A stretch of DNA of 51,349 nucleotides from the NCBI GenBank assembly GCA_003552365.1, contig PUKR01000099.1, positions 1 to 51,349 on the forward strand, read 5' to 3'. The notes beneath the pieces were generated by a model, which was not told the origin of the DNA, did no database searches, and saw nothing but the letters and a program-made list of their open reading frames with translations. Numbering within the stretch: position 1 is the first letter of the stretch; each line of letters starts with the position of its first letter. Origin of the DNA: Syntrophomonadaceae bacterium (GTDB taxonomy: Bacteria; Bacillota; Dethiobacteria; DTU022). A program made the position numbers and the translations under genes. Below are positions 4,215 through 51,349 of this stretch, piece after piece.

Positions 4215-5426
4215 CTACTTCCAAACCATATCAGCAAGCTCAAGCGATTCCAGGTAATAAGACATAACCTCAACTTCGTCAAGCCCATATTTATCAGAAG
4301 CAATAGCAAAAGCATTTTCCCAGTTTCCTTTTTCATAAAGTAAAACCATATCCAGGATATCTCTAAAGGCACCGGGTTCCCCGCTTAGAGCGTCTTTGAT
4401 TTCCTCTGCCAGGGGCAGCTCTGACAAAACGCTTTCCATCGGTTGATCCAAAAAAGTATCTAGCAGGGAAAACATCCCGGTTAAAAAAAGGTCGGCGCTG
4501 CGATCATGCAGATCGGTTGCCCTGGCCATTGATTCACAGAACTTAGCCCTGGCTACAGCAGTTACCATCAGTTCATCGGGTTTATCATAACCGACATTAC
4601 GCAGGGCAACCAAAGAAGCCCATTTAATCATTTCTTTTTGACCCAGCAGGGCCATGGCCTGGCGAATAGAACGAATCGGGAAGCGGAGCGGAAAAGCGAC
4701 AGAATTTATAAACCGCAATAATTTATAAGATAGGGACGGGTCTTGTTTAATTAAAGTTTCCACCTGGTCAAAATCCATATCCGGTTTATATATTTCCTGC
4801 AGCAAACGGAGGTTTTGTAATTTAGCCCCCGGGACTTCTTTACCGGTTATTACGGTGGGCTCGCAGAAAAAAAAGCCCTGAAAGAAATCATAACCATTTG
4901 CCATGGCATCCCCGTAATCTTTAACATTCTCCACTTTTTCAGCAATCAGCTTCACCTTGCTGTTTTTAAAGTAATTAACAATTTCTTCACGTTCCCGGGC
5001 CTCAGTTTCCTGGTAATCCACTTTAATAAAGTCGGCAATATCCACTAATTTTGTTGTTTCCGAACTGTGCACGTAGTCATCAAGGATAATCATGTACCCT
5101 TTTTTCTTAAGGGCCAAACAAGCTTGACAAGTTTCTTGTTCAAACCCATAATCCCGGGCTATTTCAATTGCGATCAAATCCCTGGGCAAAAGCAACGCTG
5201 TTTCATTCTTAATCAGCTGCTCGCTAAAGTTAATAAATGCCCTTTTTCGCCTGGTTAATTTATCCAGACCAAGATTTAAAAAACTATTAACAATGACCTC
5301 AGAAGTAGCCAGATCTCCGTCCGTGGTAGGATTGTAATTATGAGAGCCGGTTCGGTACAGTAATTCATAGGCATATACCTTTTGCCGTCGATCAAATATT
5401 GGTTGCCTGGCCACAAATACTTCCAA
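4215..5426 (-). CDS. EAL-domain + HDOD-domain protein (c-di-GMP-related signalling)
   Basis: 403-aa ORF, TTG start with SD GAGGAGG. The N-terminus VARQPIFDRRQKVYAYELLYR plus INFS, IKVD, AEKVE and FFQGFFF fit an EAL fold. The C-terminal half (SLSYKLLRFINS...LGQKEMIKWASLVAL) is HDOD-like. Confidence 0.8.
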   Translation of the reverse strand: MEVFVARQPIFDRRQKVYAYELLYRTGSHNYNPTTDGDLATSEVIVNSFLNLGLDKLTRRKRAFINFSEQLIKNETALLLPRDLIAIEIARDYGFEQETCQACLALKKKGYMIILDDYVHSSETTKLVDIADFIKVDYQETEAREREEIVNYFKNSKVKLIAEKVENVKDYGDAMANGYDFFQGFFFCEPTVITGKEVPGAKLQNLRLLQEIYKPDMDFDQVETLIKQDPSLSYKLLRFINSVAFPLRFPIRSIRQAMALLGQKEMIKWASLVALRNVGYDKPDELMVTAVARAKFCESMARATDLHDRSADLFLTGMFSLLDTFLDQPMESVLSELPLAEEIKDALSGEPGAFRDILDMVLLYEKGNWENAFAIASDKYGLDEVEVMSYYLESLELADMVWK

Positions 5427-7589: not shown

Positions 7590-7638
7590 AATAACCCTCC
7601 ACTGTCATTATCGGCAGCTTTGAGAAGATTTACAGGCC

Positions 7639-18000: not shown

Positions 18001-18762
18001 TTACTCCTGTTCGTTTAACATTACCCGTAATCTTTCAATTGCCCGGGCATGCAGTTGAGAAATACGTGCTGCCGATACCTTCATTAATTGCGCCACTTCT
18101 TTCTTGGTCAGCTCTTCATAGTAGAACAGGGAAAGCATCAATTTTTCCCGTTCGGGCAATTTATCGATAGCTTCCGCCAGTTGCCTGACCTGGTCTTTAT
18201 CAGTAAGGATTTCTTCCGGGGTTTGTTCCGGTGAAGCGATAACCCCTTCAAGGCGCAGGCTGTCTTCCCCATCAGGTGAATGAATCACTTTTTCCAAAGA
18301 AACCACCGACATCAGGTTATAGTTCGCCCAAACCTGATCTACGGTTGACGGACTCCAGCCTAAAGTAGATGCGATCTCTTCTCTTTCCGGCTCGCGGTTC
18401 AAGGATTGCCTCAATTTTTCTTCAGCTTCATGGAGTTTACGAAACTGGCTGAAGAAAGAACGTGGTGCCGGGCTGCTCTTACGAATTTCATCAATCATGG
18501 CTCCCTTAATCCGCCAGGTAGCATAAGTTGAAAACTGCACCCCGCGTGAACTTTCATAACGCTCCCAGGCTTCAATCAAGCCGATTATTCCGCTTCCGAC
18601 CAGGTCTTCCTCATCCAGGGAAGGGGGTAAAGCAATGCTGAGCTTTCCGGCCAGCTTCCTGATTAGCGGAAGGTAATTGGTTATAACCTCTTCACTGCTT
18701 CCTTCCAGTGGCTGCTCCTGTTGTTGTTCCTGGTAAACCTTTTTTACATTACGCTCAAGCAT
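18001..18762 (-). CDS. fliA: flagellar RNA polymerase sigma factor FliA/SigD (sigma-28)
   Basis: It has sigma-70 region 2 (LIRKLAGKL...EEDLVGSGIIGLIEAWERY..., FSTYATWRIKGAMID), region 3, and region 4 (LSLFYYEELTKKEVAQLMKVSAARISQLHARAI). The ATG at 18762 is my preferred start. The ORF-track TTG at 18807 lies inside the pilZ gene. Confidence 0.88.
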   Translation of the reverse strand: MLERNVKKVYQEQQQEQPLEGSSEEVITNYLPLIRKLAGKLSIALPPSLDEEDLVGSGIIGLIEAWERYESSRGVQFSTYATWRIKGAMIDEIRKSSPAPRSFFSQFRKLHEAEEKLRQSLNREPEREEIASTLGWSPSTVDQVWANYNLMSVVSLEKVIHSPDGEDSLRLEGVIASPEQTPEEILTDKDQVRQLAEAIDKLPEREKLMLSLFYYEELTKKEVAQLMKVSAARISQLHARAIERLRVMLNEQE

Positions 18763-18781
18763 AGTCCCCCTGGAACCTCCC

Positions 18782-19546
18782 TTACTCTTTATTGCGCATT
18801 GATTCAAACAGATAGTTTATAATGCGCTCCCGAACGTTTTCGTTTATATTGATAAAGCTAACCCCGGCCCGGTATCGTTTCCACCTTCCTATGCTAATGG
18901 TCACAACCCTGACAACCTTTCCTTCCAGGAGAAAAACATGGTTCTCTTCTCCATTAAGCTTGATCTTAATTAAAAGATGATCGTTTCTTTTTAACCGCTC
19001 GGAGACAACCATTCGCAACCCGCCCCCGGACAGGTCCAGGGTAAAAGCAGCTCTTCCCGGCATTATGCTTTCCAATTCCCTGGTGCGTTCCTCCATCCAG
19101 AGTGGGTCTTCCCAAAACCCGGGAGTGCGACACGAACTAAAATATTGAGTGCTGTTTTTTATAGCCGGGTCATCCAGGCACCAATAACGCAATTCGAAGT
19201 GACAGGGAACCCGGATATGACCCCGCCGCTGGTGCCGCTCTACCGTGTAAGGTTTTTTCACCAGGTAATGCTTTTCCACGCTGTTCCGGTTAACTCCGAT
19301 CACTAAAGAATTAAACAGATAAACAGCTTCATCTTTTACCAGGCAAAACTGCCAGCTGCTGTTATGAGGCATGGGTAGTTCTTTACCGCCGGAAACCGGT
19401 TCACATATGGTTATAATCTCCTTACCCGTTTCCCTGATATGGCAGGTATAATATTCTTGATCCCGCTCGTTCAAAACCTGGAGCCGATCACCAACTGTTA
19501 AACTTTTATTCATTTCAGCCGCTTTTCTTCTTCCGAACAGCTTCAT
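18782..19546 (-). CDS. PilZ-domain c-di-GMP-binding protein (YcgR-like flagellar brake candidate)
   Basis: 254-aa ORF. It has a YcgR-N-like N-terminal half and a PilZ signature, RRGHIR (RxxxR) plus DLSGGG (DxSxxG). The start ATG overlaps the flhG stop (ATGA). Confidence 0.82.
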   Translation of the reverse strand: MKLFGRRKAAEMNKSLTVGDRLQVLNERDQEYYTCHIRETGKEIITICEPVSGGKELPMPHNSSWQFCLVKDEAVYLFNSLVIGVNRNSVEKHYLVKKPYTVERHQRRGHIRVPCHFELRYWCLDDPAIKNSTQYFSSCRTPGFWEDPLWMEERTRELESIMPGRAAFTLDLSGGGLRMVVSERLKRNDHLLIKIKLNGEENHVFLLEGKVVRVVTISIGRWKRYRAGVSFININENVRERIINYLFESMRNKE

Positions 19547-40730: not shown

Positions 40731-40775
40731 TAACAAGTAAAAGAGAGGCTGCCAGTTGCAAAGCTGCCTCTCTTT
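40731..40775 (-). terminator. intrinsic terminator in the flgB leader (riboswitch expression platform)
   Basis: The minus strand reads AAAGAGAGGC-a-GC / loop UUUGCAACUG / GC-a-GCCUCUCUUU, followed by U ACUUGUU. That is a 10+2 bp stem ending in a U-run, 15 nt upstream of the flgB SD. Confidence 0.7.
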
Positions 40776-40831
40776 AGAAAACGGGGTTATCCCTTTTGAA
40801 GTTGGGCTATTCCCTTTTACTTCCTATAAGA

Positions 40832-40913
40832 GACTGGCAGCCTGGCAATCCGGCTTAACTGCGGATCCACGGCTTTGCGCCCCCATATCACTATGGGTTA
40901 GCCTTTATCAGTC
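40832..40913 (-). promoter_or_regulatory. c-di-GMP-I (GEMM-I-like) riboswitch aptamer in the flgB operon leader
   Basis: The 82-nt minus-strand sequence is GACUGAUAAAGGCUAACCCAUAGUGAUAUGGGGGCGCAAAGCCGUGGAUCCGCAGUUAAGCCGGAUUGCCAGGCUGCCAGUC. It has a closing helix GACU/AGUC + GGC/GCC, a GNRA-capped hairpin CCCAUA-GUGA-UAUGGG, the GCGCAAAGCC core and a second hairpin GGAUCCG/CGGAUU. The layout matches the V. cholerae Vc2 aptamer as I recall it (..GGGCAAACC-hairpin(GAAA)-GGGACGCAAAGCC..). Confidence 0.75.
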
Positions 40914-40941
40914 TTTTAGTCTTTCTCAATATTGGATTTAC

Positions 40942-46344: not shown

Positions 46345-46426
46345 TTCCGATCCCTTCTTTCCATGAAAACTTGGATCCAGACATAGTTCTTTTAATAATT
46401 ATTAGATATTAAGTCTTTCATATACA

Positions 46427-46453
46427 ATAATCGTCAGCTGGCAAATATATTTA
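46427..46453 (-). promoter_or_regulatory. candidate sigma-28 (FliA/SigD)-type promoter upstream of flgM
   Basis: On the minus strand, TAAA (46450-46453), 15 nt, then ACGATTA. The SigD consensus as I recall it is TAAA-N16-CCGATAT. The core CGAT is kept but the match is imperfect. Confidence 0.3.
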
Positions 46454-48382: not shown

Positions 48383-48643
48383 TCAATGGCGCGGGTTTTT
48401 CTGCACCATTTTAACAGCGTCAAGCACTATACCTAAAATATCCAGGTCCTGCTGCATTGCTAAAAGTTCGGCCCGGCCATAAGTTTCTCCTTTGCTTGAA
48501 ACTACATAGCGCGGTGGAATTTTATTCAGCGCTATAGCGCTGATATCAAACCGGCACTGCTGGCAGGTGCAGAATTCATGGTATTTCCTTACGTCATCAA
48601 TGGTATTGGAAACGACCTGTTCCATGAGGTTTTTAAGTTCCAT
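48383..48643 (-). CDS. ComFB-family (late competence development protein ComFB-like) small Cys-containing protein
   Basis: MELKNLMEQVVSNTIDDV...FCTCQQCRFDISAIALNKIPPRYVV...LDAVKMV is the typical ComFB layout. I set the start at ATG 48641-48643, 8 nt after GAGGAGAG. Confidence 0.78.
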   Translation of the reverse strand: MELKNLMEQVVSNTIDDVRKYHEFCTCQQCRFDISAIALNKIPPRYVVSSKGETYGRAELLAMQQDLDILGIVLDAVKMVQKNPRH

Positions 48644-48677
48644 AACGATATCTCTCCTCAATTGATGAGATCATACA

Positions 48678-49799
48678 CTAAGATAAGTCTCTGTTTATAA
48701 CGTGCTCCGGTAATTCATGGTCATGGTACACCCGGTCGACAGCTACCTGTAAATCCTCCAAAAGATCTATTTCGTAGCTTTCAAGGGGGGCAAAATCCTC
48801 CCTGGCACAAATAATTCTAACCCTGGGCCGGTAGGGATAGCCATGAGTGTTATGAGTAACTACCCCAATTAGTTCGTTGGTTAGCCCGATTATAGTGCCT
48901 ACCGGGTAAGCGGATATGTGATGATAAAAAGTTTGCATCACATTTAAGTCATATCCTGTAGATTCTTCTTCCATAATTTCCAGGGCCTTGTGAGGCATAA
49001 ACCCGGGACGGTATGGGCGATCTGAAACCAGCGCATCATATACATCCGCTACCGCGCATACCCTTGGGTAAAGTTCAATATCATCCCCATTTAACCCCTG
49101 CGGGTAACCAGCACCATTCATCCTTTCATGGTGCTTGTAAATGATTGAAAGGGTGGGTCCGTTAAACAGCTGCCGCCCTTTAATCAGGTTCAAACCATAA
49201 GCAGGGTGCTTTTCTATTTCCAACCTTTCATCCTCAAACAAACGGTCCGGTTTGTTGAGTATATTTAGAGGAACCACAACCTTGCCCAAATCGTGCAGGA
49301 ATGCACCAAGCCCAATATCTTTAAGGGCTGAACGGGACATTCCCAGGGAGATCCCGGTCATGATGGATAAAACAGCAACATTAACAGAATGCCCAAAAGT
49401 ATAGTCGTCAGTATACCTGATATCGGATAAATTAACGGTGAGATTCTTATTGCTTAATAACTGGCCGACAATATCATCAAGGAGGTTAGAAAGTTCTTTT
49501 TTCACAGAAATAAAATGGGTATATTTCTTGTTCTCTTGATTTTTAATACCGGTGAGAGTATCTTTAACCAGGCTGACAGCTTTTTCCCTGGTTTCATCAA
49601 GGATAACATCTTCTACGTAAATATCCGGGATCAGGTTATCGTGAACGTAAACCCCGCGGATATTTAATTTCTTAAGCCGCTGAATGTATTCCATTTCCAG
49701 CTTAACCCCGGCATTAAGCAGGACCGCACCCCCGCTGCCGGTTATTTTTTTGGCTACTCTCATGCCCGGGCGCAAAGCCCAAACCGGGACTAATCTCAT
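48678..49799 (-). CDS. HD-GYP domain c-di-GMP phosphodiesterase
   Basis: It has HSVNV...GAFLHDLGK (HD) and HHERMNGAGYPQGL (GYP), plus an N-terminal non-enzymatic domain. I set the start at ATG 49797-49799, 6 nt after AGGTG. Confidence 0.88.
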   Translation of the reverse strand: MRLVPVWALRPGMRVAKKITGSGGAVLLNAGVKLEMEYIQRLKKLNIRGVYVHDNLIPDIYVEDVILDETREKAVSLVKDTLTGIKNQENKKYTHFISVKKELSNLLDDIVGQLLSNKNLTVNLSDIRYTDDYTFGHSVNVAVLSIMTGISLGMSRSALKDIGLGAFLHDLGKVVVPLNILNKPDRLFEDERLEIEKHPAYGLNLIKGRQLFNGPTLSIIYKHHERMNGAGYPQGLNGDDIELYPRVCAVADVYDALVSDRPYRPGFMPHKALEIMEEESTGYDLNVMQTFYHHISAYPVGTIIGLTNELIGVVTHNTHGYPYRPRVRIICAREDFAPLESYEIDLLEDLQVAVDRVYHDHELPEHVINRDLS

Positions 49800-50009
49800 T
49801 GCTCGCACCTTTTTTTAAAGATTTAGCTGTTATTTTTATCGGCACAACAACAAACCGTTTAAGTGAAGTAACTTTTAAAATATTTTCACACACATTAAGT
49901 TTATAACATATTTTACTAACCGGCAAATATATCGAATAGACCTTTTCCAAACAAAATATTTATAGTAAAATCGCGATATTTATCGATAATGGCAGCTTAA
50001 GCTAATGCC

Positions 50010-50044
50010 AAAAAAATCCCTTTACCCTTAACGGGAAAAGAGAT
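50010..50044 (-). terminator. intrinsic terminator following the second c-di-GMP aptamer
   Basis: The minus strand reads AUCUCUUUUCCC-GUUAA-GGGUAAAGGGAU followed by U7, with 10 of 12 stem positions paired. Confidence 0.65.
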
Positions 50045-50157
50045 CGACAAAGATAAGTTACTAACCATGAGCCGGCAGCCAGGCTATCATAGTCTGTCTT
50101 AACCTTAGACCCTTAGCTTTGCGCCCCTGCCTTTCGACAGGTTTGCCCTTGTCGATC
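50042..50157 (-). promoter_or_regulatory. c-di-GMP-I (GEMM-I-like) riboswitch aptamer upstream of the HD-GYP/ComFB/FapA genes
   Basis: The minus strand reads GAUCGACAAGGGCAAACCUGUCGAAAGGCAGGGGCGCAAAGCUAAGGGUCUAAGGUUAAGACAGACUAUGAUAGCCUGGCUGCC...UUGUCGAUC. It has GGGCAAACC, a GAAA-capped hairpin CCUGUC/GGCAGG and GGCGCAAAGC, close to Vc2 as I recall it. A 9-bp outer helix pairs 50149-50157 with 50042-50050. Confidence 0.78.
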
Positions 50158-50182
50158 AGGTTATTAGGATATATTCAGCTTG

Positions 50183-50211
50183 AGTATAATCAAGTATACT
50201 TGTGATGTCAA
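50183..50211 (-). promoter_or_regulatory. sigma-A-type promoter driving the second riboswitch
   Basis: On the minus strand, TTGACA (50206-50211), 17 nt, then TATACT (50183-50188). It starts 18 nt after the MORN gene stop. Confidence 0.7.
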
Positions 50212-50228
50212 TTGTTAACGGTATACCA

Positions 50229-51349
50229 TCAGCCAGGGCCTTGCCGGGTGATATTTCGTTCCATTTGTTCCCCGGTAGAACTATTATTATCTTCAATAAC
50301 CCTATAAGGTCCAAATCCAAACAGCCAAATACCCTTTTTAAACGAATGTTCTCCATGGATCAGCCGGCCGACCCCGTGGCGACGATCAAAAAACCAGCCT
50401 CCATTATATTTATCTCCGACTGCGGGCAGACAGGTTCCATAACCATGCCGCCATCCGTTCCACCAGCGCCCCCTGTAAATACTTCCACCGGGCCATTCAA
50501 GAATTCCCCAGCCATGATACCTGCCGCCGGCAAATTCACCTTCGTATTTACCGCCTTTGGCAAAACAGCAACTTCCACGGTTGTGCATTTTACCTCTTCG
50601 CCAATTACCCTTATATTCTGATCCATCAGCCTGCTTTAAAAATCCTTTACCATGGTAATCATTGTTGAAGAAATGACCCTCATAATAATCTCCACCTGCG
50701 GAACGATAAATCCCCCAGCCGTTTAACTTATCGGCATACCATTCTCCTTCATACTCAGAACCGTCCGGCCATACTTGCCTTCCCTGTCCCTGCCTGCGGC
50801 TGCTTTCAAATTCCCCCTTGTAAACAACACCGTTCCGGAAATTAACTTCACCATAACCATTCGGTCGCCCATCTTTTATTGCACCGTTATAACGAGAACC
50901 GTCCGCAAAGAAGTAGACCCCGGAATCATCGGAAGAACCTTTAACAAATATTCCTACATAGCGGGAACGATCGGGAAAAACCAGCTCACCCTCCCCGTGG
51001 GGCATGTTGTTCTTAGTTTCACCAATATATTTTGTGCCCCCGGAGTAATAAACCTTACCCCAACCGCTGTCACTACCGTGTTCGAACTTACCGGCAAAAT
51101 AGCTGCCGTCAGAAAAATAAACAAACCCCTTACCGTAAGGCAGGCCATTAAACAGTTTTCCCCGGTATTCTGATTGATCGGGAAAGAAAAATCTCCCTTT
51201 ATCAACAAAATTTCCATTTTTAAAAAAGCCTTTATATTGAGAGCCGTCTGTGAAAGTATAGACTCCCTTGCCGTGCATCCGGTTTTTTTTCCATTCACCT
51301 TCATAAGAACGTCCATCAGGCCAGGTTTGCTTTCCATAACCATGTCTTA
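50229..51349 (-). CDS. MORN-repeat protein (5' end outside window)
   Basis: More than 14 tandem YxGxWxxGxxxGxG-type MORN repeats (YKGEFESSRRQGQG, YEGEWYADKLNGWG, YKGNWRRGKMHNRG...). The frame stays open upstream of the ORF-track Met to position 51349 (..HGYGKQTWPDGRSYEGEWKKNRMHGKG..). Confidence 0.85.
   Translation of the reverse strand, partial: RHGYGKQTWPDGRSYEGEWKKNRMHGKGVYTFTDGSQYKGFFKNGNFVDKGRFFFPDQSEYRGKLFNGLPYGKGFVYFSDGSYFAGKFEHGSDSGWGKVYYSGGTKYIGETKNNMPHGEGELVFPDRSRYVGIFVKGSSDDSGVYFFADGSRYNGAIKDGRPNGYGEVNFRNGVVYKGEFESSRRQGQGRQVWPDGSEYEGEWYADKLNGWGIYRSAGGDYYEGHFFNNDYHGKGFLKQADGSEYKGNWRRGKMHNRGSCCFAKGGKYEGEFAGGRYHGWGILEWPGGSIYRGRWWNGWRHGYGTCLPAVGDKYNGGWFFDRRHGVGRLIHGEHSFKKGIWLFGFGPYRVIEDNNSSTGEQMERNITRQGPG

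What the first reader, a model, noticed from the sequence alone, without database searches (positions are those of the whole stretch)
50010..50211. Second, diverged c-di-GMP-I aptamer controlling an HD-GYP phosphodiesterase operon (possible feedback loop)
On the minus strand a strong promoter (TTGACA, 17 nt, TATACT) starts 18 nt after the MORN gene stop. It is followed by GAUCGACAAGGGCAAACCUGUCGAAAGGCAGGGGCGCAAAGCUAAGGGUCU...AGCCUGGCUGCC. The blocks shared with the flgB-leader copy (AAGGC[A/U]AACC, GGCGCAAAGC, [C/U][A/U]GGCUGCC) are the ones I recall as conserved in GEMM-I. The first hairpin co-varies between the two copies (CCCAUA/UAUGGG with a GUGA loop against CCUGUC/GGCAGG with a GAAA loop), which argues for a conserved RNA fold rather than chance similarity. 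A 9-bp outer helix (50149-50157 with 50042-50050) closes the element. A terminator (50010-50044, U7) follows and shares only 3 nt with that helix, so I cannot tell ON from OFF by eye. The next gene (49799) encodes a c-di-GMP-degrading HD-GYP enzyme. An ON switch would give homeostatic negative feedback. An OFF switch would give positive feedback and, together with the flgB-leader switch, a bistable motile/sessile decision. The 210-nt A/T-rich spacer between terminator and start codon is unexplained and might hold a second promoter.
Basis: partly seen in the sequence, partly recalled or inferred. Interest (0 to 1): 0.75.

Follow-up and report, generated by a model that had tools for sequence, protein, structure and literature searches.

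The report
c-di-GMP riboswitch before a phosphodiesterase operon
This is a genuine but ordinary class-I cyclic-di-GMP riboswitch with its own promoter and terminator, placed in front of a flagellar-locus operon for a c-di-GMP-degrading enzyme; folding suggests it switches transcription off at high c-di-GMP, and the gene also has a second, flagellar-type promoter that bypasses it.

Summary
Rfam places a complete c-di-GMP-I-clan aptamer at 50156-50070 (-), 72.7 bits against a gathering score of 59, with a second copy in the flgB leader. The TTGACA-17-TATACT promoter, the hairpin with its U7 run and the 9-bp long-range complement are all present.

Three points need correcting.

1. The best model is the "GGC" variant (RF03167), but both copies carry A, not G, at the variant-defining position. 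Their ligand contacts are the canonical G20/A47/C92.
2. The "outer helix" does not close the aptamer. It extends to 12 bp, buries J1/2 and G20, excludes P1, and takes the bottom base pairs of the terminator.
3. The "unexplained spacer" holds a sigma-28-type promoter (TAAA-N14-GCCGATAA, 49861-49836). About half of the orthologous loci have a similar motif at that position.

Constrained folding points to a weakly coupled OFF switch. The terminator base is 7-28% paired in the free ensemble and 85-99% paired with the aptamer enforced. The one independent relative shows the same direction.

The operon is HD-GYP-ComFB-FapA. Only 2 of 12 orthologous lineages carry the riboswitch.

It is a new member of a known kind. 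ON versus OFF remains an inference.

The parts
50183..50211 (-). Sigma-70-type promoter: TTGACA (50211-50206), 17-nt spacer, TATACT (50188-50183).
   Evidence: One search gives 11 of 12 matches. Both hexamers are conserved in L001 (alignment A1).
50066..50161 (-). c-di-GMP-I-clan aptamer. The Rfam span is 50156-50070, and P1 can extend to 50161/50066. P2 has a GAAA loop and P3 has a CUAAG...UAUG receptor-like motif. Ligand-contact equivalents are G20 = 50147, A47 = 50120 and C92 = 50075.
   Evidence: 72.7 bits, gathering score 59. (all 21 model pairs are standard pairs, and the key residues are G, C, A, G, C). (two compensatory P3 pairs against L001).
50146..50157 (-). 5' switching strand GAUCGACAAGGG. 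It comprises the P1 5' strand, J1/2 and the G20 equivalent.
   Evidence: It pairs either in the aptamer or with the distal strand (minimum-free-energy fold).
50042..50053 (-). Distal anti-aptamer strand UCUUUGUCGAUC. Its last 3 nt (AUC) are also the base of the terminator's 5' arm.
   Evidence: duplex -16 kcal/mol. It is conserved as UCUUUGUCGGUC in L001 inside an otherwise variable linker. The shuffle test gives P about 0.001.
50010..50045 (-). Intrinsic terminator. The stem is (G)AUCUCUUU-U-CCC / GGG-U-AAAGGGAU(U), the loop is GUUAA, and the U7 run is at 50016-50010.
   Evidence: -16.2 kcal/mol in the 48-nt context, z = -4.25. (-13.8 kcal/mol full, -7.4 without AUC). (pair probabilities).
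49836..49862 (-). Candidate sigma-28 (FliA/SigD)-type promoter: TTAAA, N14, GCCGATAA. It lies downstream of the riboswitch terminator and about 37 nt upstream of the ATG.
   Evidence: 3 matches in the window against 0.12 expected. A similar motif sits at the same position in L001, L010, L012, L007, L015 and L020. The format matches experimentally mapped E. coli FliA promoters (PMC4183435).
48678..49799 (-). HD-GYP-domain protein (373 aa from ATG 49799). Ribosome-binding site AAAGGTG at about 49814-49808.
   Evidence: HD_5, 1.3e-27. (aligns to HD-GYP phosphodiesterases 5Z7C and 4MCW; the motif reads HHERMNGAGYP).
48383..48661 (-). ComFB-family protein, a family of c-di-NMP receptors. It starts 16 nt after HD-GYP.
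   Evidence: PF10719, 4e-23. PMC12448109.
46479..48314 (-). FapA-family flagellar assembly protein, the third gene of the conserved HD-GYP-ComFB-FapA(-FlgM) block.
   Evidence: Synteny.
40832..40912 (-). The first copy: a c-di-GMP-I-clan aptamer in the flgB leader with a classical OFF platform. It is used here for comparison.
   Evidence: 60.6 bits. (terminator pairing 0.01 in the free ensemble against about 1.0 with the aptamer enforced).

Best explanation
The element is a transcriptional c-di-GMP class-I riboswitch with canonical G20/A47/C92 contacts. A strong sigma-70-type promoter drives it. It most likely acts as an OFF switch on read-through into the HD-GYP-ComFB-FapA operon.

Proposed mechanism (inferred):
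- The aptamer folds first during transcription.
- Without ligand, the distal strand UCUUUGUCGAUC (50053-42) pairs with the exposed J1/2 and displaces P1. This forms a 12-bp helix that also takes the bottom base pairs of the terminator stem, so more polymerases read through.
- With c-di-GMP bound, J1/2 and P1 are locked and the distal strand stays free. The complete 12-bp terminator forms next to the U7 run and transcription stops at about 50010.

A sigma-28-type promoter at 49861-49836 lies downstream of the terminator. It gives the operon a second input that is independent of the riboswitch and tied to the flagellar regulon.

The sigma-28 gene lies downstream of flgB on the same strand, and the flgB leader carries a clean OFF c-di-GMP riboswitch. 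High c-di-GMP would therefore shut both routes to the phosphodiesterase.

Shown: the aptamer, promoter, terminator, alternative helix, second-promoter motif and gene content. Inferred: ligand binding, the OFF direction, use of either promoter, and enzyme activity.
For: Aptamer:
- Rfam hit well above the gathering score, with the full model matched.
- All 21 model pairs are standard pairs. The G20, C44, A47, G83 and C92 equivalents are conserved in the window copy, L001 and the flgB copy.
- Two compensatory P3 pairs against L001 and five against the flgB copy.
- The tetraloop and receptor change together. The window has GAAA with a CUAAG...UAUG motif; L001 has GAGA with a plain helix (read).

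Switch logic:
- The minimum-free-energy fold of the leader is the long-range helix.
- That helix is non-random. It is conserved in L001 with changes that keep pairing (U-A to U-G, G-U to A-U), while the flanking linker diverges.
- With the aptamer enforced, the five bottom terminator pairs rise from 0.07-0.28 to 0.85-0.999 in the window. The bottom C-G pair rises from 0.41 to 0.98 in L001.
- The hairpin weakens from -13.8 to -7.4 kcal/mol in the window, and from -4.7 to -1.4 in L001, when the shared nucleotides are lost.
- Nothing competes with the terminator in the aptamer-enforced ensemble, so an ON logic finds no antiterminator.
- The aptamer state is 10.7-11.5 kcal/mol less stable than the free ensemble. 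This implies kinetic control, as is known for this class (PMC9262584).
- Class-I c-di-GMP riboswitches in C. difficile down-regulate their genes (PMC9286219).

Second promoter.

Context: the flgB copy is OFF. A FliA-like sigma factor and a PilZ/YcgR-like gene lie in the same cluster.
Against: - The overlap between the alternative helix and the terminator is only 3 nt in the window and 1 nt in L001. The two configurations are nearly isoenergetic, so the predicted dynamic range is small, roughly 3-8-fold and 2.4-fold in occupancy of the terminator base.
- In the apo state a shortened hairpin still precedes a U-run and might terminate anyway.
- Only two independent sequences of this leader could be retrieved, so neither the platform nor the direction has covariation support.
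- Nearest-neighbour folding ignores tertiary structure, ligand energy and transcription kinetics.
- A local alternative hairpin between the 5' strand and the P2 5' arm (-10.7 kcal/mol) is not accounted for.
- There is no transcript data, so use of either promoter is unproven.
Confidence: 0.55

Rival explanations
1. ON switch giving homeostatic negative feedback. Bound c-di-GMP would promote read-through, so that high c-di-GMP induces its own phosphodiesterase from the sigma-70 promoter when the sigma-28 route is shut.
For: The circuit logic is attractive. The flgB riboswitch is OFF and the sigma-28 gene lies in that operon, so an ON input would offer an escape from a locked high-c-di-GMP state. 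ON-type class-I examples exist, for example Vc1 (PMC4744006).
Against: With the aptamer enforced, the terminator is fully formed (P = 0.85-0.999) in both sequences, and no alternative partner for either terminator arm appears. The terminator does not overlap the P1 3' strand or P3, unlike ON designs such as pilM (PMC9262584). The apo state is the one that erodes the terminator.
Confidence: 0.15
2. Largely uncoupled unit. The sigma-70 promoter, aptamer and terminator would make a short (about 165 nt), mostly terminated RNA, acting as an attenuator, a c-di-GMP-binding RNA or a trans-acting riboswitch RNA. HD-GYP mRNA would start essentially at the sigma-28 promoter.
For: The terminator is strong and weakly coupled to the alternative helix. 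There are 210 nt between the terminator and the ATG. A sigma-28-type promoter lies just upstream of the gene and recurs in orthologues that lack any riboswitch. Ten other lineages regulate the gene without the riboswitch.
Against: The distal strand is conserved between the window and L001 while its surroundings diverge. This argues for a functional expression platform rather than a bare terminator. The unit is in sense orientation directly ahead of the operon, and no terminator-like site other than the riboswitch terminator was found ahead of the gene.
Confidence: 0.2
3. Variant aptamer with a different ligand: the 'GGC' variant of unknown or altered specificity, or 3'3'-cGAMP.
For: The best Rfam model is RF03167, c-di-GMP-I-GGC. 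The best solved-structure match of the enzyme is a cGAMP-specific HD-GYP, 5Z7C.
Against: The variant-defining position (model position 37, Vc2 A47) is A, not G, in the window copy, L001 and the flgB copy. The G20 equivalent is G, not the A typical of cGAMP-sensing relatives, and the C92 equivalent is C (contact positions from PMC4744006 and PMC11218506). The higher RF03167 score probably reflects overall relatedness; this is an inference.
Confidence: 0.05

Closest known systems
Cd1, the c-di-GMP-I riboswitch in the Clostridioides difficile flgB leader (transcriptional OFF switch)
   Same: Both have the same aptamer class, a Firmicute host, flagellar-locus context and an intrinsic-terminator platform. 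Ligand binding favours the terminator, which is the direction inferred here.
   Different: In Cd1, as in this window's own flgB copy, the antiterminator uses the aptamer's 3' strand and the terminator's 5' arm, and the two folds are fully exclusive (PMC9262584). Here the alternative pairing uses the aptamer's 5' strand plus J1/2 with a strand just upstream of the terminator. Only 1-3 nt are shared with the terminator.
Vc2 / Rfam RF01051 canonical c-di-GMP-I (GEMM-I) aptamer
   Same: It shares the P1-P2-P3 architecture, a GNRA tetraloop on P2, the G20/A47/C92 contacts and the C44-G83 inter-helix pair equivalents.
   Different: The sequence is closer to the RF03167 seed. Position 33 is G rather than A, and P1 is extended by 5 bp.
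Rfam RF03167, the c-di-GMP-I-GGC variant
   Same: It is the highest-scoring model (72.7 bits).
   Different: The G that the model consensus carries at position 37 (Vc2 A47) is A here. By the binding-site criterion this is not a GGC variant.
E. coli FliA-dependent pdeH (yhjH) / ycgR module
   Same: A c-di-GMP phosphodiesterase is expressed from a sigma-28 promoter as part of the flagellar regulon, alongside a PilZ/YcgR-type brake (PMC4183435; window PilZ gene).
   Different: The enzyme here is HD-GYP rather than EAL. It is co-operonic with ComFB and FapA. In this lineage it has an extra upstream riboswitch-gated promoter.
Bc1 of Bacillus thuringiensis (a c-di-GMP-I riboswitch with a long expression platform)
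   Same: Both have a long distance (over 200 nt) between aptamer and start codon, a terminator-based platform and additional regulatory input within the leader (PMC11218506).
   Different: Bc1 has two terminators and a Zur site. Here there is one terminator and a candidate sigma-28 promoter.

Membership tests
c-di-GMP-I (GEMM-I) riboswitch aptamer, clan CL00126 | Covariance-model match above the curated gathering score over the full model. | tested here: met
   RF03167 gives 72.7 bits against 59, model positions 1-80 of 80. Another clan member also passes its own threshold at the same site, but the tool does not show its identity or score.
c-di-GMP-I (GEMM-I) riboswitch aptamer, clan CL00126 | The P1, P2 and P3 helices can form and are supported by compensatory change. 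| tested here: met
   All 21 model pairs are standard pairs. Two pairs change on both sides against L001 and five against the flgB copy. The sample is only three sequences.
c-di-GMP-I (GEMM-I) riboswitch aptamer, clan CL00126 | Ligand-contact nucleotides G20, A47 and C92, and the C44-G83 inter-helix pair (Vc2 numbering). | tested here: met
   G 50147, A 50120, C 50075, plus C at model position 34 and G at model position 66. Positions are as defined in PMC4744006 and PMC11218506.
c-di-GMP-I (GEMM-I) riboswitch aptamer, clan CL00126 | GNRA tetraloop on P2, with a receptor in P3 when the loop is GAAA. | tested here: met
   The window has a GAAA loop and a CUAAG...UAUG motif in P3. L001 has GAGA and a plain helix. 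Docking itself is inferred.
c-di-GMP-I (GEMM-I) riboswitch aptamer, clan CL00126 | Binds c-di-GMP. | not testable with these tools
   This needs in-line probing, ITC or equilibrium dialysis.
c-di-GMP-I-GGC variant (RF03167) | G in place of A at the position equivalent to Vc2 A47 (model position 37). The meaning of the name is recalled from memory, but the consensus G is visible in the model line. | tested here: not met
   The model consensus reads CGCGAAG, whereas the window copy, L001 and the flgB copy all read CGCAAAG/A.
Transcriptional riboswitch with an intrinsic terminator platform | A terminator hairpin plus U-run downstream, and a pairing that excludes either the aptamer or the terminator. 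| tested here: inconclusive
   The terminator is present. The alternative helix excludes the aptamer completely but overlaps the terminator by only 3 nt in the window and 1 nt in L001.
HD-GYP c-di-GMP phosphodiesterase | An HD_5/HD domain with the H...HD...H...HHE...D metal ligands and the GYP motif. | tested here: met
   PF13487, 1.3e-27. It aligns to 5Z7C and 4MCW with all motif residues present; HHERMNGAGYP has N where the usual motif has D. Activity and substrate were not tested.
Sigma-28 (FliA/SigD) promoter | TAAA, about N15, GCCGATAA, upstream of a flagellar-regulon gene. | tested here: met
   The window has TAAA-N14-GCCGATAA (equivalently TTAA-N15) at 49861-49836. There are 3 matches against 0.12 expected. 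Six orthologous loci have a similar motif at the same position. The format matches mapped E. coli FliA sites. Use by a sigma-28 holoenzyme was not tested.

The most novel reading that the evidence does not exclude
The leader may represent an unusual expression-platform design. A downstream strand would invade the ligand-binding junction (J1/2 plus P1 5' strand) by a toehold and touch the terminator only at its last 1-3 base pairs. It is stacked in series with a sigma-28 promoter. c-di-GMP, acting through two riboswitches, and the flagellar sigma factor would then form a double positive-feedback loop, a bistable motile/sessile switch. That loop would control a phosphodiesterase, a ComFB c-di-GMP receptor and FapA. 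The module was acquired recently, in only one sub-lineage of soda-lake Syntrophomonadaceae.
Probability: 0.25. Interest if true: 0.5.

Novelty: new member of a known kind. Interest (0 to 1): 0.33.

Why it matters
If the OFF reading is right, this uncultured Syntrophomonadaceae bacterium wires c-di-GMP to repress its own phosphodiesterase by two routes. One route is direct, through this riboswitch. The other is indirect, through the flgB riboswitch, sigma-28 and the sigma-28 promoter. Together they form a compact circuit that could lock cells into motile or sessile states.

The operon also joins a phosphodiesterase to a ComFB-family protein. That family was only recently shown to bind c-di-GMP and inhibit motility. 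This adds genomic-context support for that role.

There is a practical point for annotation. The best-scoring Rfam model (the GGC variant) would mislabel an aptamer whose binding site is canonical.

None of this changes what is known about riboswitch classes.

Tried and rejected
- More independent copies of this leader. One genome scan, one metagenome scan and ten contig look-ups gave only the window's own contig and one relative. L001 = L006 = L023-L028 are identical over the 440 nt upstream of the gene. R-scape-style covariation on the platform was therefore impossible.
- Riboswitches upstream of the other orthologues. None was found at gathering score. An E-value scan of the one long leader (L004) gave only noise, and its fold has z = +0.45.
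- A sigma-70 promoter in the spacer. There are no minus-strand hits between 50010 and 49800.
- An antiterminator for an ON logic. No partner for either terminator arm was found by eye or in the aptamer-enforced ensembles.
- The primary descriptions of the GGC variant and of GEMM gene associations (Weinberg 2017, Sudarsan 2008). These are not held in the library. The meaning of 'GGC' therefore rests on the model consensus and on my recollection.
- The RF01051 score. It cannot be displayed because the tool keeps only the best clan member.
- My first L001 constraint had a one-base error in P2. It was redone, with the same conclusion and ddG 10.7 instead of 13.9 kcal/mol.

Full report
**What is there**

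On the minus strand, 17 nt after the stop codon of a MORN-repeat gene (stop ends at 50229), lies a near-consensus sigma-70-type promoter. It reads TTGACA (50211-50206), 17 nt, TATACT (50188-50183), 11 of 12 matches.

About 20 nt downstream of the likely start site, Rfam finds a complete aptamer of the c-di-GMP-I clan at 50156-50070. The score is 72.7 bits against a gathering score of 59, E = 2e-15, model positions 1-80 of 80. A second copy sits at 40912-40832 in the flgB leader, at 60.6 bits.

A hairpin at 50045-50016 followed by U7 (50016-50010) folds at -16.2 kcal/mol in its 48-nt context, z = -4.25. The hairpin alone is -13.8 kcal/mol. The simple terminator scan misses it because of one U-U mismatch in the stem.

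The next gene starts at ATG 49799, behind AAAGGTG. It is an HD-GYP-type protein (HD_5, 1.3e-27) that aligns to the solved HD-GYP phosphodiesterases 5Z7C and 4MCW. All metal-ligand motifs are present, and the signature reads HHERMNGAGYP.

It is followed at 16 nt by a ComFB-family gene and at a further 68 nt by FapA. FlgM, FlgN, FlgK, a flagellin-like FlgL and FliW come next, then the flgB riboswitch and the large flagellar operon. That operon includes FlhF, FlhG, a PilZ/YcgR-like protein and a FliA-like sigma factor.

**Which aptamer**

The best Rfam model is RF03167, the 'GGC' variant, not RF01051. The model consensus carries G at position 37 (CGCGAAG). The window copy, the flgB copy and the relative L001 all carry A there (CGCAAAG/A).

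Model positions 10, 34, 37, 66 and 75 are G, C, A, G and C in all three. They correspond to Vc2 G20, C44, A47, G83 and C92, which are the ligand contacts and the inter-helix pair (PMC4744006; PMC11218506).

By the binding-site criterion the RNA is a canonical c-di-GMP binder. It is not a GGC variant, and it is not a cGAMP-type aptamer, which would have A at position 20. That 'GGC' names positions 20/47/92 is my recollection, because the primary paper was not available. The higher score for RF03167 is probably overall relatedness; that is an inference.

Structural support:
- All 21 model pairs are standard pairs.
- Two P3 pairs change on both sides between the window and L001 (G-C to A-U, U-A to C-G).
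- Five pairs change on both sides between the two window copies.
- The window has a GAAA loop on P2 and a CUAAG...UAUG receptor-like motif in P3. L001 has GAGA and a plain helix at that place. Such linked change is expected of a docking tetraloop.

**The 'outer helix' is the switch**

GAUCGACAA (50157-49) pairs with UUGUCGAUC (50050-42), and the helix extends to 12 bp (50157-46 with 50053-42). It forms the core of the minimum-free-energy fold of the leader. It uses the P1 5' strand, J1/2 and the G20 equivalent, so it cannot coexist with the ligand-binding fold.

It is unlikely to be chance. A perfect run of 9 or more occurs in 0.14% of shuffles. In L001 the strand is kept as UCUUUGUCGGUC inside a linker that has otherwise diverged, and the changes retain pairing.

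Its last three nucleotides (AUC) are also the base of the terminator's 5' arm.

Constrained folding gives the following.

| Measure | Window | L001 |
|---|---|---|
| Terminator base pairing, free ensemble | 0.07-0.28 (five bottom pairs) | 0.41 (bottom C-G) |
| Terminator base pairing, aptamer enforced | 0.85-0.999 | 0.98 |
| Hairpin energy, full (kcal/mol) | -13.8 | -4.7 |
| Hairpin energy without the shared nucleotides (kcal/mol) | -7.4 | -1.4 |
| Nucleotides shared with the alternative helix | 3 | 1 |
| Aptamer state versus free ensemble (kcal/mol) | 11.5 less stable | 10.7 less stable |

In the aptamer-enforced ensembles nothing competes with the terminator. The direction implied is OFF: ligand gives a complete terminator and a stop at about 50010.

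The aptamer state is 10.7-11.5 kcal/mol less stable than the free ensemble. The decision would therefore have to be kinetic, as documented for this class (PMC9262584).

The coupling is weak compared with the flgB copy in the same window. There the aptamer's 3' strand pairs with the terminator's 5' arm, and terminator pairing goes from 0.01 to about 1.0. With only two independent sequences I cannot support the platform by covariation. I put OFF at roughly 0.55, ON at 0.15 and a mostly uncoupled terminated RNA at 0.2.

**The spacer**

Between the terminator and the start codon, at 49861-49836, lies TAAA-N14-GCCGATAA, equivalently TTAA-N15-GCCGATAA. The pattern has 3 matches in the window against 0.12 expected. 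It matches the format of experimentally mapped E. coli FliA promoters such as flgMN, ycgR and tar (PMC4183435).

A similar motif sits at the same distance from the ATG in L001, L010, L012, L007, L015 (ACGATAT) and L020 (CCCGATAG). Other orthologues have sigma-70-like elements instead. No sigma-70-like site was found on the minus strand in the spacer.

The operon therefore very probably has a flagellar-regulon promoter that bypasses the riboswitch. This recalls FliA-dependent pdeH (yhjH) and ycgR in E. coli.

**Distribution**

The window matches the metagenome contig SL_5KL_010_SEDDRAFT_10000033 at 100% over the HD-GYP protein. The closest genomes are uncultured Syntrophomonadaceae MAGs.

The block TatC, MORN-like gene, HD-GYP, ComFB, FapA, FlgM is conserved in at least 12 lineages with 61-83% protein identity. 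Only the window and L001 (83%) have the 430-nt intergenic region with the riboswitch. Most of the others have 115-165 nt, one has 360 nt, and none has an Rfam hit.

The unit of promoter, aptamer and terminator thus looks like a recent addition upstream of an older promoter.

**Circuit reading (inference)**

If the switch is OFF, high c-di-GMP stops sigma-70-driven transcripts here. Through the flgB riboswitch it would also lower the sigma factor encoded in that operon, and so lower sigma-28-driven transcription of the phosphodiesterase. This is positive feedback. It fits the co-regulated genes being motility genes, and it fits class-I riboswitches in C. difficile being repressive (PMC9286219).

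ComFB proteins bind c-di-GMP and inhibit motility in B. subtilis (PMC12448109, PMC12265714). The operon therefore couples a degrading enzyme with a receptor.

**Verdict**

This is a correct and careful observation of an ordinary kind of element: a new member of the c-di-GMP-I riboswitch class in a familiar genomic context. The somewhat unusual features are the expression platform and the serial second promoter. The ON/OFF question can be tested directly with the experiments listed. The evidence here leans towards OFF.

Noticed in passing
window 49836-49862 (-); L001 3947-3970; L010, L012, L007, L015 and L020 upstream of the HD-GYP ATG: A sigma-28-type promoter motif (TTAAA-N14-GCCGATAA) lies inside the 'unexplained spacer'. 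A similar motif sits at the same position in about half of the orthologous loci, including ones without a riboswitch.
   Followed up: yes
window 48383-48661 (-): The gene after HD-GYP encodes a ComFB-family protein. This family was recently shown to be c-di-GMP/c-di-AMP receptors that inhibit motility. One database homologue (P0038, 480 aa, 56% identity) carries HD_5, HD and ComFB domains in one protein. It may be a fusion or a gene-call artefact.
   Followed up: partly
window 50134-50157 (-); the same place in L001: A local alternative hairpin forms between the 5' switching strand (UCGACAAGG) and the 5' arm of P2 (CCUGUCGA). It is -10.7 kcal/mol, against -12 to -13 for P2. The P2 arm and the distal strand share UGUCGA around a palindromic GUCGAC core. 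The hairpin is absent from the flgB copy, and its role is unknown.
   Followed up: partly
window 40733-40935 (-): The flgB-leader riboswitch has a textbook OFF platform. Aptamer 3' strand GCUGCC-AG-UCUCUU pairs with terminator 5' arm AAGAGAGGCAGC. Terminator pairing is 0.01 in the free ensemble and about 1.0 with the aptamer enforced, and ddG is 4.7 kcal/mol.
   Followed up: yes
window 46426-46452 (-) and 7609-7632 (-): There are further sigma-28-like motifs. TTAA-N15-GACGATTA lies in the 134-nt gap before flgM. TAAA-N13-GCCGATAA lies before an AstE/AspA-like (Peptidase_M99-like) ORF at 7589-6765.
   Followed up: no
window 18782-19546 (-), 18001-18807 (-), 4215-5426 (-): A PilZ/YcgR-like gene lies directly upstream of the FliA-like sigma factor gene. 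An EAL-HDOD protein lies further down the cluster. These are additional c-di-GMP components in the same flagellar locus.
   Followed up: no
window 48678-49799 (-), residues about 222-233: The HD-GYP signature reads HHERMNGAGYP, with N where the usual motif HHExxDGxGYP has D. The best solved-structure match is the cGAMP-specific V-cGAP3 (5Z7C). Substrate and activity are therefore open.
   Followed up: partly
L004 3643-4000 (= L009): One orthologue has a 360-nt leader with a GCCGATTT motif 197 nt from the ATG and a GC-rich stretch. It has no Rfam match, and its fold is no more stable than shuffled sequence (z = +0.45).
   Followed up: yes
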